A stretch of DNA of 64,000 bases from the NCBI RefSeq assembly GCF_013315695.1, contig NZ_CP054353.1; one strand, given 5' to 3'. The notes beneath the pieces are model-generated. The model was not told where the DNA came from. It did not search any database and was given only the letters and a program-made list of their open reading frames with translations. This document shows positions 3,713 through 51,082 of this stretch, piece by piece; within the stretch, counting starts at the first letter, position 1, and every line of letters starts with the position of its first letter. This DNA is from Escherichia coli. Lineage in GTDB: Bacteria; Pseudomonadota; Gammaproteobacteria; Enterobacterales; Enterobacteriaceae. Made by a program: the position numbers and the translations under genes.

Positions 3713-5138
3713 TAATGCCGATCAGTTAAGGATCAGTTGACCGATCCAGTGGCTGTGTAAGAATCCGGAAACGCTCACTTGTTTCCGGATTTTTTTATGC
3801 ACATTGGACAGGCTCTTGATCTGGTATCCCGTTACGATTCTCTGCGTAACCCACTGACTTCTCTGGGGGATTACCTCGACCCCGAACTCATCTCTCGTTG
3901 CCTTGCCGAATCAGGTACTGTAACGCTACGCAAGCGCCGTCTTCCCCTCGAAATGATGGTCTGGTGTATTGTTGGCATGGCGCTTGAGCGTAAAGAACCT
4001 CTTCACCAGATTGTGAATCGCCTGGACATCATGCTGCCGGGCAATCGCCCCTTCGTTGCCCCCAGTGCCGTTATTCAGGCCCGCCAGCGCCTGGGAAGTG
4101 AGGCTGTCCGCCGCGTGTTCACGAAAACAGCGCAGCTCTGGCATAACGCCACGCCGCATCCGCACTGGTGCGGCCTGACCCTGCTGGCCATCGATGGTGT
4201 GTTCTGGCGCACACCGGATACACCAGAGAACGATGCAGCCTTCCCCCGCCAGACACATGCCGGGAACCCGGCGCTCTACCCGCAGGTCAAAATGGTCTGC
4301 CAGATGGAACTGACCAGCCATCTGCTGACGGCTGCAGCCTTCGGCACGATGAAGAACAGCGAAAATGAGCTTGCTGAGCAACTTATAGAACAAACCGGCG
4401 ATAACACTCTGACGTTAATGGATAAAGGTTATTACTCACTGGGACTGTTAAATGCCTGGAGCCTGGCGGGAGAACACCGCCACTGGATGATACCTCTCAG
4501 AAAGGGAGCGCAATATGAAGAGATCAGAAAACTGGGTAAAGGCGATCATCTGGTGAAGCTGAAAACCAGCCCGCAGGCACGAAAAAAGTGGCCGGGACTG
4601 GGAAATGAAGTGACAGCCCGCCTGCTGACCGTGACGCGCAAAGGAAAAGTCTGCCATCTGCTGACGTCGATGACGGACGCCATGCGCTTCCCCGGAGGAG
4701 AAATGGCGGATCTGTACAGTCATCGCTGGGAAATCGAACTGGGATACAGGGAGATAAAACAGACGATGCAACTGAGCAGGCTGACGCTGAGAAGTAAAAA
4801 ACCGGAGCTTGTGGAGCAAGAGCTGTGGGGTGTCTTACTGGCTTATAATCTGGTGAGATATCAGATGATTAAAATGGCGGAACATCTGAAAGGTTACTGG
4901 CCGAATCAACTGAGTTTCTCAGAATCATGCGGAATGGTGATGAGAATGCTGATGACATTGCAGGGCGCTTCACCGGGACGTATACCGGAGCTGATGCGCG
5001 ATCTTGCAAGTATGGGACAACTTGTGAAATTACCGACAAGAAGGGAAAGGGCCTTCCCGAGAGTGGTAAAGGAGAGGCCCTGGAAATACCCCACAGCCCC
5101 GAAAAAGAGCCAGTCAGTTGCTTAACTGACTGGCATTA
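3713..5138 (+). mobile_element. IS4 insertion sequence, complete (1426 bp)
   Basis: Terminal inverted repeats TAATGCCGATCAGTTAAG (left) and CTTAACTGACTGGCATTA (right); single DDE transposase ORF; flanked by 13-bp direct repeat. Confidence 0.9.
3797..5125 (+). CDS. insG: IS4 transposase (InsG-like)
   Basis: 442-aa ORF from [16 protein letters not shown]; ORF track extends 6 codons upstream to 3779. Confidence 0.9.
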
Positions 5139-5151
5139 CGACAATGTGCCG
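5139..5151. repeat. IS4 target-site duplication, right copy (CGACAATGTGCCG)
   Basis: Matches 3700-3712. Confidence 0.85.
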
Positions 5152-5197
5152 ACGTTTTGATAAAGAAAGATTTGGCTATTTATTGCACGTTGTTCAT

Positions 5198-6481
5198 TCA
5201 GGCTGCCTGGCTAATCCGCGCCAGCTGCTCGAAATAATCCGGAAATGTTTTGGCCGTGCATTTGGGATCAAGAATCGTCACTGCCGTATCTGATAATGCG
5301 ACCAGCGAGAAACACATCGCCATCCGGTGATCATTATAAGTGGCGATCTCAGCAAATTTCAGTTTTTCCGGTGGCGTAATGCGAATAAAATCGTGCCCCT
5401 CTTCGACTTCCGCACCAACTTTACGCAGTTCTGTTGCCATCGCAAACAGGCGATCGGTCTCTTTAACACGCCAGTTATAGATATTGCGCAGCGTGGTGGT
5501 GCCTTTTGCAAATAACGCCGCCGTGGCAATGGTCATCGCCGCATCAGGAATATGGTTCATATCCATATCAATGGCGTTCAGTTCACCACGCGTGCAGGAA
5601 ATATAATCATCGCCCCAGCAAATGGTCGCACCCATTTTTTCCAGCACATCAGCAAAGCGAATATCACCCTGCATACTGTTGCGTCCAATGCCGGTCACTT
5701 TTACAGTGCCGCCTCTGATTGCTGCTGCTGCCAGGAAATAAGAAGCCGAGGATGCATCGCCTTCGACCAAATAAGTACCCGGAGACTGATAAGACTGCCC
5801 CCCTTTTACGACAAATTGTTGATAGTGCTGATTTTCAATTTCAACACCAAACGTCTTCATCAGATTGAGGGTGATGTCGATATAAGGTTTAGAAACCAGA
5901 TCGCCTTTAATACGAATCACCGTATCTTCCGACGCAAGAGGTGCAGTCATTAACAGTGCGGTGAGGAACTGGCTGGAAACGGAGCCATCAACGTCAACGT
6001 TGCCGCCAGTAAAGCCGCCCTGTAAACGCAATGGTGGATAATTTTCTTGTTCCAGGTAAGTGATCTTCGCCCCGCCCAGGCGCAGCGCATCCACCAGATG
6101 ACCAATGGGGCGTTCTTTCATACGCGGTTCACCGGTCAGCACAATATCATTGCTACCCAGACAAAGAGCTGCCGCCAGCGGACGCATTGCCGTTCCGGCG
6201 TTACCGAGGAACAACTCCAGGGCACTTTTTGCGTGTAATGGACCGCCGTTACCGATGATTTCGCAACGCGTACGATCGGCTGAAAGCGTATAGCTTACCC
6301 CTAACGCTGCTAATGCATTCAGCATATGGCGCACGTCATCGCTATCCAGCAGATTGGTTAATACTGTTTTGCCATGTGCTAATGCCGCCAGCAATAAAGC
6401 GCGGTTAGAAACGCTCTTGGAACCAGGCAGATTAATGGTGCCATCGACACGAGCGATGGGTTGTAACGTCAGGGATTCCAT
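5198..6481 (-). CDS. aroA: 3-phosphoshikimate 1-carboxyvinyltransferase (EPSP synthase)
   Basis: 427-aa ORF starting [23 protein letters not shown]. Confidence 0.97.
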
Positions 6482-6551
6482 GAACTCAACTCTCTACAAC
6501 AGAAATAAAAACCCCACAGGCTGGCTGTGGGGATTAAGCAAAATTTCGGCA

Positions 6552-7640
6552 TTAGCCGTGACGGCGTTCGAACTCAACCATGAAGTCTGTCAGCGCTTTA
6601 ACGCCTTCCAGCGGCATGGCGTTATAAATAGACGCGCGCATTCCGCCGACCACACGGTGACCTTTCAGCGCATGAAGGCCAGCAGCAAAAGACTCTTCAA
6701 GGAACAATTTGTCAAGCGCACTGTCCGCCAACTGGAACGGCACGTTCATCCGCGAACGGTTAGCTTTCGCCACGTCATTGCGGTAGAAATCGCTGTTATC
6801 AATCACCCCATACAGCAGTTCTGCTTTTTGCTGATTGATTTTATCCATTGCAGCTACACCGCCGTTCGCTTTCAGCCATTTAAAGACCAGACCAGACAGA
6901 TACCAGGCAAATGTCGGCGGCGTGTTGAACATGGAATCGTTATCGTTGAGGATGGAGTAATCCAGAATCGATGGGCAGGCGATATTCGCTTTGCCCAGCA
7001 AATCTTCACGAACGATGACGATTGTCAGGCCAGCCGGGCCGATATTTTTCTGCGCGCCAGCGTAAATTACCCCATAACGGCTGACATCAATCGGACGGGA
7101 AAGAATGGTTGAAGAGAAGTCGGCGGCGACCACCACATCTTTGCCGAAGTCTGGCGTTTCGTCGATGGCGATACCGTCGATGGTTTCATTCGGGCAGTAA
7201 TGCATATAAGCAGCATTATCAGAGAGCTGCCATTCTCGCATTGGCTTAACCGCGCGCAGACCATCAACAGTCACTTTGGCGTCAAAGACATTAGGCGTGC
7301 AGTATTTTTTCGCTTCTTTAATGGCACTTGCCGCCCAGTAACCGGCATCAACATAATCTGCAGTGGTTTTATCACCGAGAATATTCAGCGGAACAGCAGC
7401 AAACTGACCGCGACCGCCGCCATGGCAGAACAATACCTTGTAGTTGGAGGGGACATTAAGAAGATCGCGAAAATCCTTCTCGGCTTCCTCTGCAACCTGA
7501 ATGAACTCTTTGCCCCGGTGACTCACTTCCATCACCGACGTACCAAGACCGTTCCAGTCGCGCAGTTCCTGTTGAGCCTGTTTAAGCACCTCTGCCGGTA
7601 GCATTGCCGGACCAGAACTAAAATTGAAGATTTGAGCCAT
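6552..7640 (-). CDS. serC: phosphoserine aminotransferase
   Basis: 362-aa ORF starting [15 protein letters not shown]; upstream of aroA in the same orientation (serC-aroA operon). Confidence 0.97.
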
Positions 7641-7838
7641 TTCCCCTCACCACGTTGCGTTGCTATTAACCCGCGGTCAATCGATTGCGACCACAGGTAA
7701 TACATTATTCCTGTGGCTATCGGTTTTATCATTCAGTGACACACATCGCAATGAGTAAAACCGTTGAGGGCAAAAATGTGGCTTGCATCACACAAAAGAA
7801 TCTCTCGGATTATTAGCAAAAAGCCGATGTTTTTACTG

Positions 7839-8531
7839 TCACGTCACCCGTTTTGCCCGACTTGCCTTCGTCCATTCTGGATTTGCACAGCGCGGACATA
7901 ATTGTTTTTCCCCCGCGTTCATATGAATGATTTCACTGCAACGAATGCAGGCATAGTCCGCCGACTCGGGTACCACTTTGTAACGCTGAGTACAATCACT
8001 GGGTAAAATAAGTAAACCCGGTTTCACCTTGTCATCTTCAAAGAAATAGACACTGATTTGCCCGTTGGTTTCGAGAATCGCCAGACGTACCTGCCCCAAC
8101 TGCTCCACTCCACGCAGTCGCAGCTCCATAAAGAACTCAAATTCCGTCATGTTGGAGTTATTAAGTTTCGACCAGGCCAGCTCACCATCCTCAATAATGA
8201 CAACCGGCTTGCCTTCCAGAAGATCTTCCAGTTTTTCACTGTGCGCCATCAACCACATTACCAGGCGGTATAACAAAGCCAGAGTAATAAAGACGATAAG
8301 TACCGGGACCATCGGCACATCATCATAAAACGCCACATCTCCCGCCGCTGACCCCAGCGTCAGAATGATTAACACTTCAAAAAGCGACATCTGCCGCACA
8401 CCGCGTCTTCCGGTCATTTTGAGGAACAAAAAAACCAGTACAAAGGTATAAAGACTACGTAGTGCCACTTCGCCAAGGAAATCAAAAGGCACTTTATCAA
8501 ATGCCATACGGTGGAGATCGAACGCCTTCAT
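7839..8531 (-). CDS. ycaP: inner-membrane protein (DUF421-like)
   Basis: 230-aa ORF with N-terminal hydrophobic helices; synteny between serC and ycaO. Confidence 0.8.
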   Translation of the reverse strand: MKAFDLHRMAFDKVPFDFLGEVALRSLYTFVLVFLFLKMTGRRGVRQMSLFEVLIILTLGSAAGDVAFYDDVPMVPVLIVFITLALLYRLVMWLMAHSEKLEDLLEGKPVVIIEDGELAWSKLNNSNMTEFEFFMELRLRGVEQLGQVRLAILETNGQISVYFFEDDKVKPGLLILPSDCTQRYKVVPESADYACIRCSEIIHMNAGEKQLCPRCANPEWTKASRAKRVT

Positions 8532-8660
8532 TTTTATGCTCTTATCGTGGTTTATCCACTAAAAGCATAGTCAACAGTTCATCGGCATGGCGGCGGTGAT
8601 AGCGCCTTTGAGATAAAACCCGTATTATTGCGCGCTTTCCGTACGACTAAAGTGATTTTC

Positions 8661-10421
8661 ATGACGCAAACATTTATCCCCGGCAAAGATGCCGCACTGG
8701 AAGATTCCATCGCTCGCTTCCAGCAAAAACTTTCAGACCTCGGCTTTCAGATTGAAGAGGCCTCCTGGCTGAATCCCGTGCCTAACGTCTGGTCTGTACA
8801 TATTCGCGACAAAGAGTGCGCACTGTGTTTTACCAACGGTAAAGGCGCAACCAAAAAAGCGGCGCTGGCTTCTGCACTCGGTGAATATTTCGAGCGTCTC
8901 TCAACCAACTACTTTTTTGCTGACTTCTGGCTGGGCGAAACCATCGCCAACGGTCCGTTCGTGCATTATCCCAACGAAAAATGGTTCCCACTGAGCGAAA
9001 ATGACGATGTGCCAGAAGGGCTGCTCGATGACCGTCTGCGCGCATTTTACGATCCGGAGAATGAACTGACCGGCAGCATGCTGATTGACCTACAATCCGG
9101 TAACGAAGATCGTGGTATTTGCGGTCTACCGTTTACGCGCCAGTCCGACAATCAGACCATTTATATTCCGATGAATATCATTGGTAACTTGTACGTTTCT
9201 AACGGTATGTCTGCTGGCAATACCCGTAACGAAGCACGCGTTCAGGGGTTGTCCGAAGTTTTCGAACGTTACGTGAAAAACCGCATTATTGCTGAAAGCA
9301 TCAGCTTGCCGGAAATCCCGGCAGACGTGCTGGCGCGTTACCCAGCGGTGGTTGAAGCCATCGAAACACTGGAAGCAGAAGGTTTCCCAATCTTTGCTTA
9401 TGATGGTTCGCTTGGCGGCCAGTATCCGGTGATTTGCGTGGTACTGTTCAATCCTGCTAACGGTACCTGCTTTGCCTCTTTCGGTGCGCATCCTGATTTT
9501 GGCGTAGCACTGGAACGTACCGTGACCGAGCTGCTGCAAGGTCGTGGCCTGAAAGATTTGGATGTGTTTACTCCGCCAACCTTCGATGATGAAGAAGTTG
9601 CTGAACATACCAACCTCGAAACGCACTTTATCGATTCCAGCGGTTTAATCTCCTGGGACCTGTTCAAGCAGGATGCCGATTATCCGTTTGTGGACTGGAA
9701 TTTCTCCGGCACTACGGAAGAAGAGTTTGCTACGCTGATGGCTATCTTCAACAACGAAGATAAAGAAGTTTATATTGCCGATTACGAGCATCTGGGCGTT
9801 TATGCTTGCCGAATTATCGTGCCTGGCATGTCCGATATTTATCCGGCTGAAGATCTGTGGCTGGCGAATAACAGTATGGGCAGCCATTTACGTGAAACGA
9901 TTCTTTCGCTACCAGGTAGCGAGTGGGAAAAGGAAGATTACCTGAACCTCATCGAGCAACTGGATGAAGAAGGTTTTGATGACTTTACCCGCGTGCGTGA
10001 ACTGTTGGGTCTGGCGACCGGGTCGGATAACAGCTGGTACACTCTGCGTATCGGAGAATTAAAAGCCATGCTGGCGCTGGCTGGTGGCGATCTGGAACAG
10101 GCTCTGGTCTGGACCGAATGGACGATGGAGTTTAACTCATCAGTATTTAGTCCGGAACGCGCCAACTATTATCGCTGCCTGCAAACGTTGTTATTACTGG
10201 CGCAGGAAGAAGATCGCCAGCCGCTGCAATATTTGAATGCGTTTGTTCGCATGTACGGCGCAGATGCCGTGGAAGCCGCCAGTGCGGCAATGAGCGGTGA
10301 ATCGGCGTTTTATGGCCTGCAACCCGTAGATAGCGATCTGCACGCATTTGCTGCACATCAATCGTTGCTGAAGGCCTACGAAAAGCTGCAGCGCGCCAAA
10401 GCGGCATTCTGGGCAAAATAA
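8661..10421 (+). CDS. ycaO: YcaO-domain protein
   Basis: 586-aa product starting MTQTFIPGKDAALEDSIARF (ORF track begins 11 codons upstream at 8628). Confidence 0.9.
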   Translation: MTQTFIPGKDAALEDSIARFQQKLSDLGFQIEEASWLNPVPNVWSVHIRDKECALCFTNGKGATKKAALASALGEYFERLSTNYFFADFWLGETIANGPFVHYPNEKWFPLSENDDVPEGLLDDRLRAFYDPENELTGSMLIDLQSGNEDRGICGLPFTRQSDNQTIYIPMNIIGNLYVSNGMSAGNTRNEARVQGLSEVFERYVKNRIIAESISLPEIPADVLARYPAVVEAIETLEAEGFPIFAYDGSLGGQYPVICVVLFNPANGTCFASFGAHPDFGVALERTVTELLQGRGLKDLDVFTPPTFDDEEVAEHTNLETHFIDSSGLISWDLFKQDADYPFVDWNFSGTTEEEFATLMAIFNNEDKEVYIADYEHLGVYACRIIVPGMSDIYPAEDLWLANNSMGSHLRETILSLPGSEWEKEDYLNLIEQLDEEGFDDFTRVRELLGLATGSDNSWYTLRIGELKAMLALAGGDLEQALVWTEWTMEFNSSVFSPERANYYRCLQTLLLLAQEEDRQPLQYLNAFVRMYGADAVEAASAAMSGESAFYGLQPVDSDLHAFAAHQSLLKAYEKLQRAKAAFWAK

Positions 10422-40252: not shown

Positions 40253-40333
40253 CCTGAAGCCGAAAGCAGGCGCGGAATAACACCAGAAAACACACGAGCA
40301 ATTAATTAAGGCATTCATGCCTTCGGGTTCCCT

Positions 40334-40588
40334 TTGTCTTTTTTCAGGAGTCAACAAATGAGAACAGCCGAATCACCCGGCAGAAAAATAACCGCCAGAC
40401 CAGCTAACCATCATGCACATATCAGCATTGCCGCAAGAAAAGCCGAGCGTGCGCATATCTGCGAATTGCTGCATGACCTGGTTAACACAGCGAGAGAGAA
40501 GCACACCTCCCCGGAGGAAACCTGTTCATCCATTGAACGACTGATTGCAATACTCGCCAACCCAGACGAACTGAAGGGGTGCGCATAA
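40334..40588 (+). CDS. hypothetical early protein
   Basis: 84-aa ORF, stop overlaps the exonuclease start. Confidence 0.35.
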   Translation: MSFFRSQQMRTAESPGRKITARPANHHAHISIAARKAERAHICELLHDLVNTAREKHTSPEETCSSIERLIAILANPDELKGCA

Positions 40589-43164: not shown

Positions 43165-43547
43165 CAGAAACACCCCGCGTATGCAGACAATCACCAGTTG
43201 CCAGGTGATATTAATTCGCAACATTCTAACCACATCAGCACGCAACACAAAAACCGCTTGCCAGCGCTCGTCGTGTCAGGTTACATTTCCGCTGCACCTC
43301 ATAAAACGGGTGCCGGGTTTCGCAGCCTGCTGACAACCAAAGCGCACAACCGCGCCAGCGGTTTTTTTGTGCGTACTGTATTGCCACGTCTTTTTCGCGT
43401 CAGAATTATGGCGGGGCGTACGGGGCCGACTTCGGTCGGGCCGGGTTCTTTGCTAGCCGGTACTGCGAACCTCGTACGTCTCGCCACCCACAGTTTCGCA
43501 GCTCTGGATGGTGAGTTTTCACAACTTACTAGCAAAGAGGCCACACC

Positions 43548-43769
43548 ATGGCAAACCGCAAGCAACAGCGCGCCCGCGCTGAGCGTCTTCACATCCGCAG
43601 CGAAATCAACCGCAGACTTTTCCGCGCAACACGCGTCGCGCAAATCATGCATATCAACATGCTGCATGAGCGCACGCACGCACTATCAAACCGTTACTGC
43701 GCTGCTGTCTTCAGCTATCTCGCCGAAGATCTGGCAGAACTGCAAAGCCTCATCAACCAGCACCGATAA
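43548..43769 (+). CDS. small basic protein (73 aa), copy 1
   Basis: MANRKQQRARAERLHIRSEINRRLFRATRVAQ..., AAAGAGG Shine-Dalgarno; identical copy at 44377-44598. Confidence 0.45.
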   Translation: MANRKQQRARAERLHIRSEINRRLFRATRVAQIMHINMLHERTHALSNRYCAAVFSYLAEDLAELQSLINQHR

Positions 43770-43837
43770 ACCACATCCGGAAGCTATCCCACACCTGCAC
43801 GCGGGAGGCTTCCGCACGTCTGTTACCGGAGGTTCTC

Positions 43838-44008
43838 ATGAAGAGCGTTAAGGGACTTTCAGATATTCAGGACTTCTTTAACTGGATGTGGGCGGTGGAT
43901 CCCCTGCTGGCTTCCCGCCTGAACAACTGGCACGACTATTACCGCCGCGCCTGTAAACAGGCTGCCCGCAGCGTCACCACATACGGGGCTTTCTCCTTCA
44001 CCGTTGAC
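43838..44008 (+). pseudogene. 5'-truncated duplicate of the 138-aa pre-A gene
   Basis: First 57 codons match 44667-44837, then the frame runs into repeat unit 2. Confidence 0.5.
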
Positions 44009-44837
44009 TATGCAGACAATCACCAGTTGCCAGGTGATATTAATTCGCAACATTCTAACCACATCAGCACGCAACACAAAAACCGCTTGCCAGCGCTCGT
44101 CGTGTCGGGTTACATTTCCGCTGCACCTCATAAAACGGGTGCCGGGTTTCGCAGCCTGCCGACTAGCAAAGCGCACAACCGCGCCAGCGGTTTTTTTGTG
44201 CGTACTGTATTGCCACGTCTTTTTCGCGTCAGAATTATGGCGGGGCGTACGGGGCCGACTTCGGTCGGGCCGGGTTCTTTGCTAGCCGGTACTGCGAACC
44301 TCGTACGTCTCGCCACCCACAGTTTCGCAGCTCTGGATGGTGAGTTTTCACAACTTACTAGCAAAGAGGCCACACCATGGCAAACCGCAAGCAACAGCGC
44401 GCCCGCGCTGAGCGTCTTCACATCCGCAGCGAAATCAACCGCAGACTTTTCCGCGCAACACGCGTCGCGCAAATCATGCATATCAACATGCTGCATGAGC
44501 GCACGCACGCACTATCAAACCGTTACTGCGCTGCTGTCTTCAGCTATCTCGCCGAAGATCTGGCAGAACTGCAAAGCCTCATCAACCAGCACCGATAAAC
44601 CACATCCGGAAGCTATCCCACACCTGCACGCGGGAGGCTTCCGCACGTCTGTTACCGGAGGTTCTCATGAAGAGCGTTAAGGGACTTTCAGATATTCAGG
44701 ACTTCTTTAACTGGATGTGGGCGGTGGATCCCCTGCTGGCTTCCCGCCTGAACAACTGGCACGACTATTACCGCCGCGCCTGTAAACAGGCTGCCCGCAG
44801 CGTCACCACATACGGGGATTTCTCCTTCACCGTGGAC
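44009..44837 (+). repeat. tandem duplication, unit 2 (829 bp)
   Basis: See unit 1. Confidence 0.85.
44377..44598 (+). CDS. small basic protein (73 aa), copy 2
   Basis: Identical translation to 43548-43769. Confidence 0.45.
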   Translation: MANRKQQRARAERLHIRSEINRRLFRATRVAQIMHINMLHERTHALSNRYCAAVFSYLAEDLAELQSLINQHR

Positions 44838-45083
44838 GGTCGTTACCGCGTGGACGTGAAAGGTGATGGTGATGGACTGGGTTTATTTCACATCAACGGC
44901 ACCGACAGTACCGCCATCAGCTGGTCGTCATCAGAGATGGCGCTGGTTCTGGAAATGACAACCCACAGCGTGGCCGTGAAAGGTATATACACCGCAGAAG
45001 GTTTTATCGGCGAATACCAGCGCCTTCTCGTGCTGTACCGCGCGGCGTTTCAGGTGGCAACTGCCGGGGAGTGCGACGCATGA
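44667..45083 (+). CDS. hypothetical protein immediately upstream of gene A
   Basis: 138 aa, GGAGG Shine-Dalgarno, stop overlaps the A start. Confidence 0.5.
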   Translation: MKSVKGLSDIQDFFNWMWAVDPLLASRLNNWHDYYRRACKQAARSVTTYGDFSFTVDGRYRVDVKGDGDGLGLFHINGTDSTAISWSSSEMALVLEMTTHSVAVKGIYTAEGFIGEYQRLLVLYRAAFQVATAGECDA

Positions 45084-47593
45084 GCGACCATAACGCACAA
45101 CTGGCGTACCCGTGGAACGCCCCGCTACCGGTTATCGATCCTGAAACGTTCGGCAGAGCACAGCCAACCGCATTACGCCAGGCCATTCAGAGCTACATCA
45201 ACGAGGACATTCGCATTGATGCCAGACTGGATGAAGAAACCGTCGCCTTTCTGACAACCACAGACGAAGGGAAGCGAATTAATTCGCACCTTCACCACAA
45301 CGAAGAGCGTCGGATCAGACTGGAAAAACTGGCGCGGCACAAACGCGAGAATCCGCCCACGGTGGTATCGGAAGCCATGGCAGAACTTCGCGCCCTGCCC
45401 TCGTTTCTTGGCAACGCGCTCATTCGTGATCTGGCGCGTTTAAACCGCAAACAGCAAAGCGCCCGCCATGAAGGCGTGAAAAACAACAATACACACGTGG
45501 CTGATAACTTTGTTCGCCGTGGACTGCGCACACGCCTGAAACGCATCGAACAGGTGAATGAATGCTTCGCCACGACGGCATTCAAAGCCACCGCAGCACG
45601 CCATCGCCTTGATGAATTACTCATGCTGCCACAACTCAACCGTGATCAAATTCAGCGCCTTGCCACACTAACGGCGGCGGCATTTTCCACCGAACTGGAA
45701 CGCATATGTGATGAAGTTACTGAGCGGACAGGAAAAGGCGACGATAACCTGTTTACCTGGTTGCTGACTTACCAGCAGCTGGCGCGCATGGCAATAAAAC
45801 TGGGCGTGAACCCACCATACTGGCCGTCACTCGAGATCAGACGTGACCGCCGCACGGCACCAGACCCTGAACTGGTACCGGGCGCGGTAATGCGTATCAC
45901 CTGCGCCACCTGGTGGAACAACCAGCTGCGCCACCTCGCTGATCTCTGGCGGGAGGAATTACTGCGTGCCGCCGGAAGAGTATCGCGCAAGGCATCCCCC
46001 TACATCAGCCATGAGTCACTCCAGGAATTCCGGGAGAAACGCCAGCGCACCCGTGATTTTCTCAAAAGCTGGGACATTGAAAACGAAGACGGTGAACGCC
46101 TGAGCCTGGAGGACGTGTACTGGTCAGGGCTGGGGAATCCGCGCAACCGCCGCAACGAGATGATGGCCTGCGTCAGAGGGATGGAACAGGTCGCCGAATC
46201 GCGTGGTGACTCCGCGTTCTTCGTGACAGTGACCTGCCCTTCCCGCTTTCACAGCGTAAACGAGGACGGCAGCCTGAACCCGAAATACAACGGTGCCACC
46301 GTGCGCGATGCCAGTGATTATCTGGTTTACGACGTCTTTGCAGCTGCAAGAAAAAAACTCAACAAAGAAGGCCTGAGCTGGTACGGGGTGCGCACCGTTG
46401 AGCCACACCATGACGGCACACCGCACTGGCACATGCTGGTATTCACCGCCCCGGACAATGAAGAACGCATCATTGAAATCATGCGTGACGCAGCAATCAA
46501 ATCAGATCGCGCAGAACTGGGGAATGATATTTCTCCGCGCTTCAAGTGCGAAAAAATCGACCCGGCAAAAGGCACACCGGCAAGCTACATCGCAACCTAT
46601 ATTGGCAAGAACCTGGACGCCAGCACCTTTCACGACAATGACCCGAAAACCGGCAAACCTTACGCCGATAAAGAATCGGGAAAAACCATGGCGGAAACCG
46701 TGGAAAACGCCATTGCCTGGGCGAGTCTCCACCGCATCCGGCAGTTCCAGTTCTTCGGTATCCCGCCCCGCCAGGTATGGCGTGAACTCCGCCGCCTTGC
46801 CGGACAAATGGAGCGTAACCCCGCATCACCGAAGCGCCTGGACCATGACGACATTGACGCCATTCTGGCCGCCGCTGACGTGGGGTGTTTTGCCACCTAC
46901 ATCAACCGTCAGGGCGGCGTGCTCATTCCACGCAACCTGTACCTGATCCGCACCGCATACGAAACCGCAGATGAGGCCAACGACTACGGCGAATTCCCGC
47001 AGCGCATCTACGGAATTTGTGCCCCGTCGCTCGGCGAGCGCTACACCATCTGCACCCATCCGGACGAGTGGAAACTGGTCAGAAAAGAAGCGAAAGCCGA
47101 CAACAGCACGGACGAGGATTTTGACGTTGGGGGCGGCTTCGCCGCACCTTGGACTCGTGGCAATAACTGTCGCCATGATGAAAAAACAGACACCGAAGAG
47201 GGTAAAAACCCACCACCGGAAACCAGGAAAGAACAAAAACTGGTCGTCCCGGAAGGTGATTTGGGCGAGTGGTTAAGGTCACTGACCCCCACAGAGCGAA
47301 AACAACTCACCAGGCAGCTGAAAGATGCGCCATCTGACACAAAAACCGTGAAAACCGGCGGCCCCACCACGCCCGATGACGTCATACATGTGCGTACCGC
47401 ATTGCCGCTGGCTGACGTCACCACCACCGTGATCAAGTCGGCACTGAGCACGACGGGCGAGGAGCTGCACAGTGGCGCGGCACTTTCCGTACACAGAGGT
47501 GCACGCGTTCGCCTGCCTGACGGGCGGATTGTGCACTGGGATGAGAAATCACGAAGCCTGGTGGCAGCAGATCAACCGGAGGTGAACCCATGA
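45071..47593 (+). CDS. P2 gpA-like rolling-circle replication initiator
   Basis: 840 aa with HUH-type motif HHDGTPHWHMLVF. Confidence 0.9.
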   Translation: MRRMSDHNAQLAYPWNAPLPVIDPETFGRAQPTALRQAIQSYINEDIRIDARLDEETVAFLTTTDEGKRINSHLHHNEERRIRLEKLARHKRENPPTVVSEAMAELRALPSFLGNALIRDLARLNRKQQSARHEGVKNNNTHVADNFVRRGLRTRLKRIEQVNECFATTAFKATAARHRLDELLMLPQLNRDQIQRLATLTAAAFSTELERICDEVTERTGKGDDNLFTWLLTYQQLARMAIKLGVNPPYWPSLEIRRDRRTAPDPELVPGAVMRITCATWWNNQLRHLADLWREELLRAAGRVSRKASPYISHESLQEFREKRQRTRDFLKSWDIENEDGERLSLEDVYWSGLGNPRNRRNEMMACVRGMEQVAESRGDSAFFVTVTCPSRFHSVNEDGSLNPKYNGATVRDASDYLVYDVFAAARKKLNKEGLSWYGVRTVEPHHDGTPHWHMLVFTAPDNEERIIEIMRDAAIKSDRAELGNDISPRFKCEKIDPAKGTPASYIATYIGKNLDASTFHDNDPKTGKPYADKESGKTMAETVENAIAWASLHRIRQFQFFGIPPRQVWRELRRLAGQMERNPASPKRLDHDDIDAILAAADVGCFATYINRQGGVLIPRNLYLIRTAYETADEANDYGEFPQRIYGICAPSLGERYTICTHPDEWKLVRKEAKADNSTDEDFDVGGGFAAPWTRGNNCRHDEKTDTEEGKNPPPETRKEQKLVVPEGDLGEWLRSLTPTERKQLTRQLKDAPSDTKTVKTGGPTTPDDVIHVRTALPLADVTTTVIKSALSTTGEELHSGAALSVHRGARVRLPDGRIVHWDEKSRSLVAADQPEVNP

Positions 47594-47994
47594 CACGATT
47601 CCATTGCGTACTCCAGCGCCATGATTTCAGCACCATCATGAGTGGACGCATTCCGGCACTGACGCTGAGCGGCGTCAGTGTTCGGCCACAGCCAGGCGAC
47701 GAACTGGAGATCACGATCGCAAACCCCGATCGCAGCACAGATACCGTCATGACCGACATCCTGACTGCAAGAATCAACGCCGACAGAAGCGCATTCATCG
47801 TTGCCGTGCGTCCTCGTCGCGCCATATCAGAGCCTGAACCACTGACCCCCGTCGGAAAAATCATGCAGGCATACCACGAAAAACAGACCAGAAAACTCAA
47901 TGAAGAGCTGGCAAGAACGTTGGCCGTCGTTAACCGAAAAGCGGCAATTGCCCGCTATGTGCATTCAGCCGCCAACAGGCAATCACGCAGGTAA
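47590..47994 (+). CDS. hypothetical protein
   Basis: 134-aa ORF, translationally coupled to A. Confidence 0.4.
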   Translation: MTRFHCVLQRHDFSTIMSGRIPALTLSGVSVRPQPGDELEITIANPDRSTDTVMTDILTARINADRSAFIVAVRPRRAISEPEPLTPVGKIMQAYHEKQTRKLNEELARTLAVVNRKAAIARYVHSAANRQSRR

Positions 47995-48003
47995 CAAAAG
48001 ACC

Positions 48004-48213
48004 ATGAACATGACCAAAAACACCAAACTGAAGGAGCACACCATGAACGACATCAGGAAGATCAGCGACAAAGACCTGAAGAAAATGATTGAGTCGGCGC
48101 AGCAGCTGCTCTCACGACGAAATCCGGTTGTGGAAGAAACATGGTGGGAAAATTTACTGGCAGCGCTGACCGAACTCCGCGAACGCCGGAACAACGAAGG
48201 AGCTGCCAAATGA
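48004..48213 (+). CDS. hypothetical small protein
   Basis: 69-aa ORF; stop overlaps the next start. Confidence 0.35.
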   Translation: MNMTKNTKLKEHTMNDIRKISDKDLKKMIESAQQLLSRRNPVVEETWWENLLAALTELRERRNNEGAAK

Positions 48214-48548
48214 AGACACCCAGAATGACCGGAAAGGAAATCATTTTACGCTACCTGAAAACGCACGCACGCTTCAGCGCACCAGAGCTGGTTGAAAAAC
48301 TGGGCGTGAAAAGGACCGTCATTAATCAGGCTGCCGGAAAGATGGTGCGCGAAGGGCTGCTGGTTGTGGATGGGTACACGGACAAGATAACGCATTACCG
48401 GAAGCCAACGAAAAAGGAGCTGCGGGAGCTGAAACGACGGGCAGAATGGCAACAGGAGCCGTCAGTAATTGAAGCCTGCAAGCGCAGCGAAATCATGAAG
48501 AGAATTCTGTTTATCTACGGCGCTGGCGAAGAGCTGCCCGTCATCTGA
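48210..48548 (+). CDS. putative winged-helix DNA-binding protein
   Basis: 112 aa from MKTPRMTGKEIILRYLKTHARFSAPELVEKLGV. Confidence 0.45.
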   Translation: MKTPRMTGKEIILRYLKTHARFSAPELVEKLGVKRTVINQAAGKMVREGLLVVDGYTDKITHYRKPTKKELRELKRRAEWQQEPSVIEACKRSEIMKRILFIYGAGEELPVI

Positions 48549-48580
48549 ACCCAACAATAAAACCAACACGGGAGACAAAT

Positions 48581-48898
48581 ATGCCAACACAGGTTGCAAC
48601 AGAGGGACGACTGGCAGCAGACCCGAACACAAGGAGAACAGCCAAAGGTACCAGCGTCACAACAGCACAACTGGCGGTATCACTACCCTGCCATGGCGCA
48701 GAACAGCCAACCACAATGTGGCTTTACCTTATCGCGTTCGGGAAGCAACACGAAGAACTGGCAAAACACAGAAAAGGCGATCTGATCCTGGTGCACGGGA
48801 ACTTGCAGGTAAACAGGTATCAGGACAAGTACGAGCAACAGAAAGAGGGCTGGCAGCTGCTGACGCAAAGCATTATCAGCTCAAGAACCGGGCGATGA
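48581..48898 (+). CDS. short SSB-like OB-fold protein
   Basis: 105 aa; pattern GRLAADPNTRRTAKGTSVTTAQLAV...WLYLIAFGKQHEELAKHRKGDLILVHGNLQ resembles the SSB N-terminal OB-fold without a C-terminal tail. Confidence 0.45.
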   Translation: MPTQVATEGRLAADPNTRRTAKGTSVTTAQLAVSLPCHGAEQPTTMWLYLIAFGKQHEELAKHRKGDLILVHGNLQVNRYQDKYEQQKEGWQLLTQSIISSRTGR

Positions 48899-48947
48899 CT
48901 TCACGCATGTTACCCTCAGCAGCGAGGGTAACACAGGATTTCTTTTT

Positions 48948-49592
48948 TCAGTCAAACCGAAATCGGCCGCTTGTCGCGTATGCATAGGTGACCACCGCAC
49001 CCAGCGCATTCACACGCTTCTTCACATAAATCACATTACCATCCTGATAGTCACCGTATGGGTAGCAAATAAAGATTGTTTTTTGCAAATCAGGATCATC
49101 AACAAATGCCCCTGAACAACTTTTTGAGCTACCGCGACTGTACTCATAGGGAGCGGAATAGAATGAATCTTCACCCGGAAGAAAATATATCAGCGTAACC
49201 AGGAGGGTAAACAGAATCATCCAGGTAAGAAGGCACATACCCGAAAAAAACTTAAGATACGATGTAACCCCGGTAAATTTAGACCGATCAACCAGGTTCT
49301 TTTTCAACAGGCACAGTGAGACAAAAACCGAAAGCACCACAGACACTGAAACAAGGCAGTTTGTCGTGAACGAATAAAGGTAGGTAATTCTGTAAACATC
49401 GTTTCGCCACCAAATAAAAAGAAAAATCCCCCCCAAAACAGAAAGCGTGACAAAAGTTAAATAAGGATATGAGTAATTTTTCACAGTTCTCACCCGGCAA
49501 TACACCACTGATTCAGACAGATGATTATCATCACCACCCACCCCCAAAAATCGCAAGATAAAAAATGCACAAAAGCGCACGAAATTGCACAA
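48948..49592 (-). CDS. hypothetical multi-pass membrane protein at the tin/old-equivalent position
   Basis: 214-aa ORF on the opposite strand, AT-rich, several hydrophobic helices. Confidence 0.45.
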   Translation of the reverse strand: MCNFVRFCAFFILRFLGVGGDDNHLSESVVYCRVRTVKNYSYPYLTFVTLSVLGGIFLFIWWRNDVYRITYLYSFTTNCLVSVSVVLSVFVSLCLLKKNLVDRSKFTGVTSYLKFFSGMCLLTWMILFTLLVTLIYFLPGEDSFYSAPYEYSRGSSKSCSGAFVDDPDLQKTIFICYPYGDYQDGNVIYVKKRVNALGAVVTYAYATSGRFRFD

Positions 49593-49987
49593 TTTTTCTT
49601 ATGTGTTTCATCCCCATTCAGCCCAGTAACGGCGCTGGCTGAGGCCGGTTTGCACGGTGCACGAAAAACGAGGCAATTGCAGCGCGCAGGCGACGAGGGA
49701 AGGGCGCCCGAATTGAGGGGTGGAAGGCAGGTTGCTTTATTTGGGGTCGTATTGCGCGTGATACGCACGCAGTGAAGCCGGTTCTGAAAAAACCACACCG
49801 AAACAGAGTCAGAAAAACAGGCCGCCAGAATGCGTCTGGTTGAGTTTTACGGGGTCGGGATTAAATGCGGAAACATCACACCGCAGGCATGACGCGAAAA
49901 AGAGAAAAACCACAGCAAAACATAATGTTAAATGTTATTGATGAGTTGAGAAGCGAGAGGTGTATTGCGTTGACAGAGCTGGAGAGT
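49593..49987. other. noncoding segment expected to contain the phage cos / packaging site
   Basis: In P2 cos lies between the old end and Q; GC-rich motif GGCGACGAGGGAAGGGCGC at about 49688 resembles the P2 cohesive-end sequence as recalled. Confidence 0.3.
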
Positions 49988-50038: not shown

Positions 50039-51082
50039 TCAGCTGGCGTTATCCTGAAGCAACGCATAGGGGTTAAAGCGCATTACCTCGCTTCCCAGCC
50101 ATTCATTGACATGCTTCATGGCCTCCATGACAGGTTGCAGCTCGTTGATGAAAAACACCCTCGCCGCTTTCTCAACGTCACCGAGCGCCGCGTTCCCGTC
50201 AGGCATTGCCCCCATCAGCTGAGGCGGTACACGGTGAGCCGCAAGGATATCGTCACGGGCGGTACCCTTGATGTTAAGGAATTCGTCCTTCGCGGTGATT
50301 TGCTGGAACGGCAGTATTTGCACACCATCCTTGCCGCCACCTGGCGCGTGCAGAAGGATATTGCGGAACGCCCCCTTGCCACGGGATTCCGTGAGGGTTT
50401 TCTTTACCGCCTCCACGCTTTCAGCGTTTGCCTGGGCGGCCCCGACATAGACAATGCACCCGGCATGTGAGCCGTTGTCATAGTAGAGCTTGCGGAACGT
50501 GTCCGCCGAGTTCGACAGGCTCACCGACAGCAGCCCACCGATATACTCCGGCATCCCGTAGATTTCCTGGTTGATATCAGGGTTCAGAACATGGCACACA
50601 GCCCCCTTCCGGAACGCGAATTCAGAACCATCATCATTGAGGTACCAGTACGTATCGAGATCACTGCCCCGCCGCGTGTATTTCGCCAGCGCCGGGCGGA
50701 GCGCAATGGGCTCACCGAACCTGTTACGGCGCACCTCAAGATAGGCATTACCGAACACAAACCAGTCGAGTGCAAACGCTGAAAACGCCTGGCGGGACAG
50801 GAGCGGATGAGGAACAAAGCACCCGTTCAGGGCGTTGCGCTTAAAATACAGGGCCGACTGGTGCCATGACGCACGACGGGAGGCGCGAGCAATGGCGTTC
50901 CAGTCCATGGGGGTGTCATAGTAGCGGCCATTATCGGCGCACGACATATTATCAAGAAGATCAAGACGGCTTGCTTCATAAGGACCGTCAAACGTGAAAG
51001 CACTGAGTGACGGCGCTGATTTCAGTGCATCGGCCAGTGAGCCCGTGCCGCGCTTTCCGGTGTATTTTTTACGTTTACTCAT
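50039..51082 (-). CDS. P2 gpQ-like portal protein
   Basis: 347 aa, leftward, paired with the terminase gene. Confidence 0.85.
   Translation of the reverse strand: MSKRKKYTGKRGTGSLADALKSAPSLSAFTFDGPYEASRLDLLDNMSCADNGRYYDTPMDWNAIARASRRASWHQSALYFKRNALNGCFVPHPLLSRQAFSAFALDWFVFGNAYLEVRRNRFGEPIALRPALAKYTRRGSDLDTYWYLNDDGSEFAFRKGAVCHVLNPDINQEIYGMPEYIGGLLSVSLSNSADTFRKLYYDNGSHAGCIVYVGAAQANAESVEAVKKTLTESRGKGAFRNILLHAPGGGKDGVQILPFQQITAKDEFLNIKGTARDDILAAHRVPPQLMGAMPDGNAALGDVEKAARVFFINELQPVMEAMKHVNEWLGSEVMRFNPYALLQDNAS

What the first reader, a model, noticed from the sequence alone, without database searches (positions are those of the whole stretch)
47590..49592. Variable cargo at the A-to-Q (tin/old-equivalent) position: short SSB-like protein, winged-helix protein and a reverse-strand AT-rich membrane protein
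In phage P2 the segment between gene A and the cos/Q end carries tin and old, which exclude other phages. Here that slot holds different genes: a 134-aa and a 69-aa protein, a 112-aa putative winged-helix protein, a 105-aa OB-fold protein resembling an SSB without its C-terminal tail, and an oppositely oriented AT-rich 214-aa multi-pass membrane protein. A tail-less SSB-like protein could interfere with incoming phage replication; the membrane protein is a candidate abortive-infection or exclusion effector. None can be assigned to a known system from sequence alone.
Basis: partly seen in the sequence, partly recalled or inferred. Interest (0 to 1): 0.55.

Follow-up and report, generated by a model that had tools for sequence, protein, structure and literature searches.

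The report
Prophage replication-operon tail plus membrane-protein moron
The five genes are real, but they are two separate things: four genes that ride with the replication gene of a distant P2-like E. coli prophage (one is a lambda Ren homologue, one a tail-less SSB), and one swappable membrane-protein gene in the old/tin slot, from an uncharacterised family found in about 9% of complete E. coli genomes.

Summary
All five ORFs exist at the stated coordinates. The segment lies in the already described gpA-gpQ hotspot of P2-like prophages. This exact gene arrangement is listed, with no sign of having been tested, in Rousset et al. 2022 Table S5.

The block is not uniform cargo. In 28 related loci presence is nested: A > orf134 > orf69 > Ren-like > SSB-like > membrane protein. 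orf134 always abuts A, so it is backbone for this A lineage. The "winged-helix protein" is a homologue of lambda Ren (44% identity). The SSB-like protein has a real SSB domain. Its 105-aa tail-less form is conserved in E. coli, while Klebsiella relatives keep an acidic tip.

These four genes are tightly packed behind A and end at a hairpin. I infer they are early lytic genes for replication or counter-defence, not prophage defence.

Only 48897-49561 (665 bp, GC about 0.41) is a cleanly swapped cassette, in the position and orientation of P2 old/tin. It encodes a 178-aa protein, not 214 aa. The protein has three TM helices and a probably periplasmic beta domain with two conserved cysteines (AF2 pLDDT 94). 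It matches no Pfam, PADLOC or PDB entry. Homologues occupy the same slot in other P2-like phages and form an antisense moron in phage 434. Superinfection exclusion is my leading guess but is unproven.

The parts
45071..47593 (+). Replication endonuclease gene A (context, left anchor of the hotspot)
   Evidence: 840-aa ORF, annotated replication endonuclease in the 99.9% identical MSB1_4I locus. It is 31% identical to P2 A, 37% to 186 A and 52% to P88 A.
47590..47994 (+). orf134: unknown function, fixed partner of this A lineage (backbone, not cargo)
   Evidence: The ATGA overlap with the A stop codon is read directly from the sequence. phrog_14984 1.7e-81. No Pfam hit, no PDB homologue, no match in 50,697 phage records. 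It directly follows A in all 28 loci that carry an orf134 homologue. 37 columns are invariant among homologues of 57-92% identity. No similarity to P2 Orf91.
48004..48213 (+). orf69: small protein of unknown function (RefSeq start 48010)
   Evidence: phrog_14672 1.3e-34. Present at 77-100% identity in a subset of the related loci, always directly after orf134.
48210..48548 (+). Ren-like winged-helix protein (112 aa)
   Evidence: phrog_142 'Ren-like exclusion protein' 1.2e-29. tblastn gives 44% identity over 88% of the query to the lambda ren locus, E 5e-17, next to gene P in many lambdoid phages. Pfam MarR_2 3.5e-5. Its start overlaps the orf69 stop.
48581..48898 (+). Tail-less SSB-like OB-fold protein (105 aa)
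   Evidence: Pfam SSB 1.9e-13. It falls below the TIGR00621 cut-off, 45.6 against 53.95 bits. Best PDB sequence matches are bacterial SSBs. W47 and F53 align with E. coli SSB W54 and F60 and are invariant. The protein ends right after the OB fold, whereas 138-155-aa Klebsiella relatives carry linkers and some end in YDDDF/YYDDF. It is interrupted by an IS3-family element in locus L010.
48908..48933 (.). 10-bp-stem hairpin between the convergent SSB-like and membrane-protein genes; probable end of the early operon
   Evidence: RNA fold gives -17.7 kcal/mol, z = -3.4, and 0 of 200 shuffles fold as well. A T-rich run follows 9 nt downstream, so it is not a canonical terminator by the scan. Homology with locus L004 runs through it to 48932. 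Its function is inferred.
48897..49561 (-). Swapped AT-rich single-gene cassette, the true old/tin-equivalent cargo
   Evidence: Homology to sister prophages stops at 48896 (L003), 48932 (L004) or 48553 (L012), and resumes at 49562, 49560 or 49566. GC is 0.40-0.47 against about 0.55 in the flanks.
48948..49484 (-). TM178: 178-aa inner-membrane protein, three TM helices plus a C-terminal beta domain with two conserved cysteines
   Evidence: Conserved start at GTG 49484. AF2 pLDDT 94.2, pTM 0.84: helices 6-29, 38-61 and 73-101, and five strands over 105-171. The K+R bias places the N terminus and loop 2 inside and the beta domain outside; Cys123 is kept in 30 of 31 members and Cys140 in 31 of 31. 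No Pfam hit in any of 31 members, none in PADLOC, none in PDB. The family comprises 57 clusters among 1.84 billion representatives.
49524..49529 (-). -10-like hexamer GATAAT in the conserved 5' region of the TM178 family
   Evidence: It lies in a block conserved upstream of family members in P2-like, Salmonella and lambdoid contexts. No good -35 hexamer is present, and the consensus promoter scan did not call it. Promoter function is inferred.
49566..49592 (-). Three helically phased (10-bp period) TTGTGCA-type repeats, at the right border of the swap region
   Evidence: The phased GTGC-N6-GTGC-N6-GTGC pattern occurs once in the window. The repeats are conserved upstream of TM178 homologues in phage 434, EDL933 CP-933K, and E. 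coli and Salmonella P2-like prophages. They are also kept next to cos in sister phages with other cargo. The protein that binds them is unknown.
49689..49707 (.). Putative cos core (GGCGACGAGGGAAGGGCGC)
   Evidence: 13 of 19 positions match the P2 cohesive end GGCGAGGCGGGGAAAGCAC. The surrounding block is conserved with the ends of the linear P88_4B11 record. This is inference only.
50039..51082 (-). Portal gene Q (context, right anchor of the hotspot)
   Evidence: 347-aa ORF, annotated phage portal protein, 70% identical to the P88 portal.

Best explanation
The segment is made of two units with different histories and probably different expression.

Unit 1 (47590-48898) is the 3' tail of the early replication operon of a distant P2-like (Peduoviridae) E. 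coli prophage.
- orf134 is translationally coupled to A and always travels with this A lineage.
- orf69, a lambda-Ren homologue and a tail-less SSB follow with overlapping or near-abutting start and stop codons, and the run ends at a hairpin.
- I infer that these genes are made together with A after induction or infection. I infer that they serve or shield the phage's own rolling-circle replication. In lambda, ren is described as likely involved in replication, and (from my own knowledge) ren- phage are excluded by Rex. The SSB-like protein would coat the displaced single strand without recruiting host SSB partners.
- I do not think they defend the lysogen.

Unit 2 (48897-49561) is a 665-bp AT-rich single-gene moron in the position and orientation of P2 old/tin.
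- It encodes a 178-aa protein with three TM helices and a small, probably periplasmic, disulfide-bonded beta domain.
- It carries its own conserved 5' region: three phased TTGTGCA repeats and a -10-like element.
- I infer that it is expressed from the prophage and acts at the envelope, most likely as a superinfection-exclusion protein that blocks an early step such as DNA entry.

What is shown: gene content, homologies, nested conservation, breakpoints, predicted fold and recurrence of the slot. What is inferred: timing of expression, topology and every functional statement.
For: Anatomy:
- ORFs and codon overlaps.
- No sigma-70-like promoter called inside unit 1.
- Hairpin after the SSB-like gene.

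Nested presence and breakpoints:
- Presence across 28 loci, with orf134 always abutting A.
- Precise swap breakpoints.

Homologies of unit 1:
- Ren homology. Lambda ren is co-transcribed with O and P and is described as likely involved in replication, with Rex-Ren two-hybrid contacts.
- SSB domain. The tail-less form is conserved in three E. coli subclusters, while Klebsiella relatives keep an acidic tip and sit right after a DUF927 primase.

Comparison with P2:
- P2 has Orf91 forward after A, and tin and old on the reverse strand read from a promoter near cosR.

TM178:
- Start codon and family alignment.
- Confident model.
- Charge bias and conserved cysteines.
- Homologues of 52-58% identity occupy the same cos/Q-proximal reverse-strand slot in P2-like phages whose A is only 32-51% identical.
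- Homologues form an antisense insert between xis and exo in phage 434, mEp332 and EDL933 CP-933K.
- The 5' region is conserved in all these contexts.
- The family is detected in 477 of 5426 complete E. coli genomes.

The slot:
- It holds a recognised defence gene, RmrA, in sister phages, and it is a published defence hotspot.
Against: - No expression data exist, so the early-versus-lysogenic assignment rests on gene packing alone.
- Forward genes after A can have their own promoter, as with p95-tum in phage 186.
- No convincing -35/-10 pair was found for TM178.
- TM178 has no similarity to any known exclusion or defence protein.
- Distant family members are stand-alone chromosomal genes in non-phage neighbourhoods, so a function unrelated to phages is possible.
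- The periplasmic topology comes only from the positive-inside rule and the cysteine pair.
- Lambda Ren's biochemical function is itself unresolved.
- In one relative an IS element sits inside the SSB-like gene. This shows the gene is dispensable for carriage and says nothing about its role.
Confidence: 0.55

Rival explanations
1. One reading: all five genes form one defence cargo. The tail-less SSB poisons the replication of incoming phages, and the membrane protein is its abortive-infection effector.
For: The genes lie in a published defence hotspot. No known function is assigned to three of the five. Tail-less SSBs are plausible dominant-negative proteins (general knowledge).
Against: The genes do not travel together. 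Presence is nested, and the TM178 cassette has its own breakpoints. TM178 homologues occur without the SSB in other P2-like phages and in lambdoids. The SSB occurs without TM178. The forward genes are packed behind A with no promoter called. There are no PADLOC hits.
Confidence: 0.08
2. TM178 is an abortive-infection membrane effector of the S-2TM-beta/Cap15 or RexB type. It disrupts the inner membrane when triggered by a signal or by a phage protein.
For: The architecture is TM helices followed by a beta-rich domain. One AFDB50 match is annotated 'SMODS-associating 2TM beta-strand rich effector' (rank 49, E 6.9e-7, TM-score 0.59/0.51). One distant homologue lies beside DUF4062-TPR STAND-like genes and an Apyc1-like gene.
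Against: None of 31 family members hits any Pfam family, including S_2TMBeta. There is no PADLOC hit. The family profile and the model do not retrieve a Cap15 structure from the PDB. The protein has three TM helices, not two, and the charge bias puts the beta domain outside the cytoplasm, where it could not sense a cytoplasmic nucleotide. No CD-NTase or other sensor gene is a conserved neighbour.
Confidence: 0.15
3. TM178 is a lysogenic-conversion factor unrelated to phage exclusion. Examples would be immunity to a periplasm-acting toxin (colicin or T6SS effector) or an envelope-fitness factor.
For: It is a small inner-membrane protein with a probably periplasmic domain. Distant members sit in ordinary chromosomal contexts next to YmgB, glycosyltransferase or MFS genes. 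It is retained in the degraded CP-933K prophage.
Against: It repeatedly occupies the old/tin slot of P2-like phages, a hotspot enriched in anti-phage genes. No toxin gene is linked to it.
Confidence: 0.2
4. The Ren-like and SSB-like genes are ordinary, functionally neutral hitch-hikers of a mosaic region. The tail-less SSB is a decaying remnant.
For: The SSB-like gene is absent from many relatives and IS-disrupted in one. It scores below the curated SSB cut-off.
Against: The 105-aa form is kept intact in three subclusters at 76-95% identity, with invariant W47, F53, G54 and K55. Ren-like is 83-100% conserved across loci whose A genes differ.
Confidence: 0.12

Closest known systems
Phage P2 gpA-gpQ (old/tin) hotspot, as defined by Rousset et al. 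2022 (PMC9122126)
   Same: Same interval between the replication endonuclease and cos/portal. Forward gene(s) follow A, as Orf91 does in P2. Reverse-strand cargo lies next to cos. Cargo differs between otherwise related phages. This very arrangement (WP_000801013 + SSB + hypotheticals) is listed in their Table S5.
   Different: The cargo is unrelated to old and tin. None of my search terms (accessions, SSB, MarR) occurs in their Table S2 of tested systems. The phage is only 31% identical to P2 in A. Part of what the gpA-gpQ definition counts as cargo is lineage backbone (orf134) or semi-conserved early genes.
Phage lambda Ren (early gene after O-P; ren- phage are sensitive to Rex exclusion)
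   Same: 44% identity over 88% of the protein, and phrog_142 at 1.2e-29. It lies downstream of the replication gene in the same operon, as in lambda.
   Different: The host phage replicates through a P2-type A nickase, not O/P. Two small genes lie between A and the Ren-like gene. Whether it counters Rex or anything else is untested. The database label 'exclusion protein' is misleading, because Ren protects the phage rather than excluding others (my own knowledge of Toothman and Herskowitz 1980).
Bacterial and phage homotetrameric SSB (Pfam PF00436)
   Same: OB-fold domain match. Aromatic residues equivalent to E. coli W54 and F60 are conserved.
   Different: It has no linker and no acidic C-terminal tip, so no docking site for SSB-interacting proteins. 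It scores below the TIGR00621 cut-off. W88 is replaced by Tyr, and nothing aligns to W40.
CBASS effector Cap15 / S-2TM-beta family
   Same: N-terminal TM helices followed by a small beta-rich domain. There is a weak AFDB structural match to one protein carrying that annotation.
   Different: Three TM helices, not two. The beta domain is predicted to be periplasmic. There is no sequence-profile match and no CD-NTase partner.
Single-gene inner-membrane superinfection-exclusion proteins (T4 Imm/Sp, P22 SieA, HK97 gp15)
   Same: A small prophage-borne inner-membrane protein encoded as a stand-alone moron, in a slot known for exclusion genes (resemblance from my own knowledge).
   Different: No sequence or structural similarity was detected, and no phenotype is known.

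Membership tests
P2-type gpA-gpQ hotspot cargo (old/tin-like) | Located between replication gene A and cos/portal Q | tested here: met
   A is at 45071-47593, Q at 50039-51082 and the putative cos at 49689-49707.
P2-type gpA-gpQ hotspot cargo (old/tin-like) | Differs between otherwise closely related phages, with discrete breakpoints | tested here: met
   Met for the TM178 cassette: breakpoints at 48896/49562, 48932/49560 and 48553/49566. Partly met for Ren-like and SSB-like. Not met for orf134, which follows A in all 28 loci.
P2-type gpA-gpQ hotspot cargo (old/tin-like) | Reverse-strand gene read from its own promoter next to cos and expressed in the lysogen | tested here: inconclusive
   Orientation and position match P2 old/tin. 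A conserved 5' region with a -10-like element exists, but the consensus scan calls no promoter and there are no expression data.
P2-type gpA-gpQ hotspot cargo (old/tin-like) | Confers resistance to other phages | not testable with these tools
   This needs cloning and a phage challenge. None of my search terms for this arrangement occurs in Rousset et al. Table S2 of tested systems.
Lambda Ren family | Sequence homology to lambda Ren | tested here: met
   phrog_142 at 1.2e-29 over residues 3-108. tblastn gives 44% identity and E 5e-17 to lambda 40280-40558.
Lambda Ren family | Early gene downstream of the replication genes | tested here: met
   It is the third gene after A, with overlapping or abutting codons. 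Lambda ren follows P.
Lambda Ren family | Protects the phage from Rex-mediated exclusion | not testable with these tools
   This is a genetic phenotype and was not assayed.
SSB (PF00436 / TIGR00621) | OB-fold SSB domain | tested here: met
   Pfam SSB 1.9e-13. PDB SSB matches down to 1.1e-9.
SSB (PF00436 / TIGR00621) | Reaches the curated family cut-off | tested here: not met
   TIGR00621 score is 45.6 bits against a cut-off of 53.95.
SSB (PF00436 / TIGR00621) | Disordered linker and acidic C-terminal tip (D-D-D-I-P-F type) | tested here: not met
   The protein ends at residue 105, right after the OB fold. Klebsiella relatives carry linkers and some end in YDDDF/YYDDF.
SSB (PF00436 / TIGR00621) | Binds single-stranded DNA | not testable with these tools
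   W47 and F53, equivalent to E. coli W54 and F60, are invariant. Binding itself was not assayed.
S-2TM-beta / Cap15 CBASS effectors | Match to the family profile | tested here: not met
   No Pfam hit in any of 31 members, no PADLOC hit, and no PDB sequence hit with the family profile at E up to 5.
S-2TM-beta / Cap15 CBASS effectors | Two TM helices with a cytoplasmic nucleotide-binding beta barrel | tested here: not met
   The model has three helices. The charge bias and the conserved cysteine pair point to a periplasmic beta domain. This is a prediction only.
S-2TM-beta / Cap15 CBASS effectors | Genomic association with a CD-NTase (SMODS) gene | tested here: not met
   No such neighbour appears in any of the contexts examined.

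The most novel reading that the evidence does not exclude
TM178 founds a new family of single-gene, phage-borne envelope proteins that exclude superinfecting phages or otherwise defend the lysogen. The gene moves between P2-like and lambdoid prophages together with its own regulatory region of three phased TTGTGCA repeats, and a family member is detected in about 9% of complete E. coli genomes. A second, separate possibility is that the Ren-like protein plus the tail-less SSB form a counter-defence pair that hides rolling-circle replication intermediates from Rex-type or ssDNA/SSB-sensing abortive-infection systems.
Probability: 0.3. Interest if true: 0.6.

Novelty: new member of a known kind. 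Interest (0 to 1): 0.38.

Why it matters
The hotspot itself is not new. The useful result is a cleaner map of it.

- Counting everything between gpA and gpQ as cargo mixes three things: lineage backbone (orf134), semi-conserved early genes and true morons.
- A lambda Ren homologue in a P2-type replication operon suggests Ren acts on something general about phage replication or its detection, not on lambda O/P specifically.
- The conserved tail-less SSB beside it gives a concrete pair to test for counter-defence.
- TM178 is a compact, confidently modelled and widespread prophage membrane protein with no known relatives. If it excludes phages, it would be an easy single-gene system to dissect.

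Tried and rejected
- PADLOC on all five proteins: only weak winged-helix noise.
- NCBIfam: only sub-threshold SSB hits.
- Megablast against 50,697 phage records: only a 70-bp match at the portal end, so no sequenced close relative.
- tblastn of orf134 against phages: nothing.
- PDB profile searches for orf134 and TM178: nothing.
- First AF2 run of TM178 with a shallow alignment: pLDDT 63.6, discarded. The re-run with 31 diverse sequences gave 94.2.
- The Cap15/S-2TM-beta lead from one AFDB annotation failed the membership tests.
- Idea that the TTGTGCA repeats are operators of a phage regulator used elsewhere in the prophage: the phased array occurs once in 64 kb. A match to the P2 Ogr TGT-N12-ACA site was rejected by eye.
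- Sigma-70 promoter for TM178: none at 9 of 12 or better.
- Literature searches for mEp332 and for exo-xis membrane proteins gave nothing on the family.

Full report
**What is there.** The window matches a prophage of E. coli MSB1_4I at 99.9% identity. Gene A (45071-47593) is followed on the forward strand by four genes:
- orf134 (47590-47994), whose ATG overlaps the A stop codon;
- orf69 (48004-48213);
- a 112-aa winged-helix gene (48210-48548), whose ATG overlaps the orf69 stop;
- a 105-aa SSB-like gene (48581-48898).

A reverse-strand ORF lies at 48948-49592. The portal gene Q (50039-51082) and terminase gene P follow on the reverse strand. All five ORFs hit PHROG families at E values between 1e-22 and 1e-81, so they are genes. 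GC drops to 0.40-0.47 over the reverse ORF, against about 0.55 in the flanks.

**Which phage.** A is 31% identical to P2 A, 37% to 186 A and 52% to P88 A. Q and P are 70-73% identical to those of P88. No record among 50,697 phage genomes matches the region beyond 70 bp at the portal end. This is a distant P2-like lineage known only as a prophage.

**The slot is a known hotspot.**
- Only 21 of 5426 complete E. coli genomes carry the whole 2 kb, and 37 carry parts of it.
- Rousset et al. 2022 defined the gpA-gpQ interval as a defence hotspot.
- Their Table S5 lists this very arrangement (WP_000801013 + SSB + hypotheticals). None of my search terms occurs in their Table S2 of tested systems.
- Sister loci of this lineage carry other genes here: DUF4760; TumE plus HVO_A0114; a ClpX-zinc-finger-like protein; a 208-aa membrane protein; and an RmrA (Rosmer) gene at E 3e-35 with an adjacent 183-aa gene.

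**The five genes are not one block.** I searched 28 loci that carry an orf134 homologue (complete E. coli genomes and IMG/VR) with the window's proteins.
- orf134 abuts A in every locus. This holds across A proteins of 50-100% identity and across head modules as different as 32% in Q.
- orf69 is present in a subset, Ren-like in a smaller subset, SSB-like in a still smaller one, and the membrane protein only in the closest relatives.
- DNA breakpoints are sharp on the right (49560-49566) and variable on the left: 48553 after Ren-like, and 48896 or 48932 after SSB-like.
- The cleanly exchangeable unit is therefore 48897-49561 (665 bp).

In P2 itself, Orf91 follows A on the forward strand. Only tin and old lie on the reverse strand, read from a promoter about 150 bp from cosR. 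The membrane-protein cassette is the positional and orientational counterpart of old/tin. The forward genes are the counterpart of Orf91, although orf134 shows no similarity to Orf91.

**The forward genes.**
- *orf134.* It has no Pfam, PDB or phage-record match. It has 37 invariant columns among homologues of 57-92% identity. Its function is unknown, and it is a fixed partner of this A lineage.
- *The 112-aa protein.* It is a homologue of lambda Ren: phrog_142 at 1.2e-29, and 44% identity over 88% of its length to the ren locus of lambda and many lambdoids, always next to gene P. Lambda ren is co-transcribed with O and P. It is non-essential, is described as likely involved in replication, and contacts Rex proteins in two-hybrid assays. 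From my own knowledge (Toothman and Herskowitz 1980), ren- phage are excluded by Rex. Ren therefore protects the phage, and the database label "exclusion protein" misleads.
- *The 105-aa protein.* It has a genuine SSB OB domain with invariant W47 and F53, equivalent to E. coli W54 and F60. It stops right after the fold. This tail-less form is kept in three E. coli subclusters (76-95% identity). Klebsiella relatives at 45-53% identity are 138-155 aa, and some end in YDDDF/YYDDF. Those relatives sit directly after a DUF927 primase in an integrase/AlpA element. One relative (L010) has an IS3-family element inside the SSB-like gene.

The four genes are packed with overlapping or near-abutting codons. 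No promoter is called among them. A 10-bp-stem hairpin (48908-48933, -17.7 kcal/mol, z = -3.4) follows the SSB-like gene. I infer that they are early lytic genes that serve or shield replication, not defences expressed by the lysogen. This is an inference from gene packing. Phage 186 shows that forward genes after A can have their own promoter.

**The membrane protein (TM178).**
- *Start.* Family alignments start at the GTG at 49484, giving 178 aa, as RefSeq also calls it. The 36-codon extension of the 214-aa ORF overlaps conserved non-coding DNA.
- *Family size.* The family is small: 43 clusters in the word-indexed search and 57 clusters at 50% identity among 1.84 billion representatives.
- *Structure.* With 31 diverse sequences AF2 gives pLDDT 94.2 and pTM 0.84. 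The model has helices 6-29, 38-61 and 73-101, a short strand at 34-36 in loop 1, and a five-strand beta domain over 105-171.
- *Topology.* K+R counts are 4.9 for the N terminus plus loop 2, against 2.45 for loop 1 plus the segment after TM3. This places the N terminus inside and the beta domain in the periplasm. Cys123 and Cys140 are conserved in 30 of 31 and 31 of 31 members, consistent with a disulfide.
- *AFDB50.* It returns family members in Enterobacterales and Pseudomonas. It also returns remote matches (TM-score 0.55-0.65), one of which is annotated S-2TM-beta. That lead fails the membership tests: there is no profile match, there are three TM helices rather than two, the beta domain is predicted to face the periplasm, and there is no CD-NTase neighbour.

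**Recurrence of the slot.**
- Homologues of 52-58% identity occupy the same cos/Q-proximal, reverse-strand position in an E. coli P88-like prophage and in Salmonella P2-like prophages. The A proteins of those phages are only 32-51% identical to this one.
- The 52% homologue of phage 434, 2B8, mEp332 and the cryptic CP-933K of EDL933 lies antisense between xis and exo.
- A family member is detected in 477 of 5426 complete E. coli genomes.
- More distant members are stand-alone chromosomal genes without a conserved partner.
- About 110 nt upstream of the gene are conserved in all prophage contexts. This stretch includes three TTGTGCA-type repeats at a 10-bp period (49566-49592) and a -10-like GATAAT (49524-49529).
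- The repeat block also persists next to cos in sister phages with other cargo and in P88_4B11. It may belong to the cos-flanking backbone, to a portable promoter, or to both.
- A putative cos core lies at 49689-49707, matching 13 of 19 positions of the P2 cohesive end.

**Mechanism.** The supported parts are the anatomy and the homologies. For function I commit as follows.
- Unit 1 is a replication and counter-defence tail of the early operon.
- Unit 2 is a prophage-expressed envelope protein, most likely a superinfection-exclusion factor acting at or outside the inner membrane.
- The main rivals for unit 2 are an abortive-infection membrane effector and a conversion factor unrelated to phages. 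None of these can be decided without experiments.

**Verdict.** The hotspot and this arrangement are already catalogued. What is new:
- the split of the block into backbone, early genes and a true moron;
- the Ren homology;
- the conserved tail-less SSB;
- a widespread, confidently modelled but uncharacterised membrane-protein family with its own conserved 5' region.

Noticed in passing
window 43180-44008 and 44009-44837: A tandem direct duplication of 829 bp at 99.3% identity lies upstream of gene A. It duplicates the 73-aa 'derepression protein' ORF (43548-43769 and 44377-44598) and creates a chimeric 280-aa ORF (43838-44680) from the first roughly 50 codons of orf138. The 99.9% identical MSB1_4I locus has a single copy.
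   Followed up: partly
window 49566-49592 (minus strand), also L044, L045, L046, L007, L048: Three helically phased TTGTGCA-type repeats with a 10-bp period are conserved upstream of TM178-family genes in P2-like and lambdoid prophages. They are also kept beside cos in P2-like phages with different cargo. The binding protein is unknown. By eye, the P2 old promoter region carries similarly spaced TGCAT motifs.
   Followed up: partly
L010:3936-5115 (IMGVR_UViG_2630968933_000003): An IS3-family insertion sequence (ORFs of 100 aa and 272 aa) interrupts the SSB-like gene in an otherwise 96-97% identical prophage.
   Followed up: no
L018-L020, about 7046-8699: In sister prophages with a related A and orf134, the slot holds a Rosmer-type RmrA gene (PADLOC E 3e-35) followed by a 183-aa protein. 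In L018 there is an additional IS3-family element.
   Followed up: partly
L041-L043 (Klebsiella), 4703-7800: The closest longer relatives of the SSB-like protein have an acidic C-terminal tip. They lie right after a DUF927 primase in an integrase/AlpA/AntA/Ash element. They are followed by a fragment similar to a portal gene (47% identity over 107 aa), and then by a PDDEXK_GAPS4 gene and its neighbours. This suggests exchange between P2-like cos-proximal regions and satellite-like elements.
   Followed up: no
L012/L013:6973-7311: In two close relatives the SSB-like gene and TM178 are replaced by a 112-aa forward gene with a ClpX-type zinc-finger motif (phrog_6797). P88 has a similarly annotated small gene in the same interval.
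   Followed up: no
L007:4755-4925 (phage 434): An annotated 56-aa 'putative membrane protein' upstream of the 434 TM178 homologue overlaps the conserved repeat-bearing 5' region and has no PHROG match. It may be a spurious call rather than a partner gene.
   Followed up: partly
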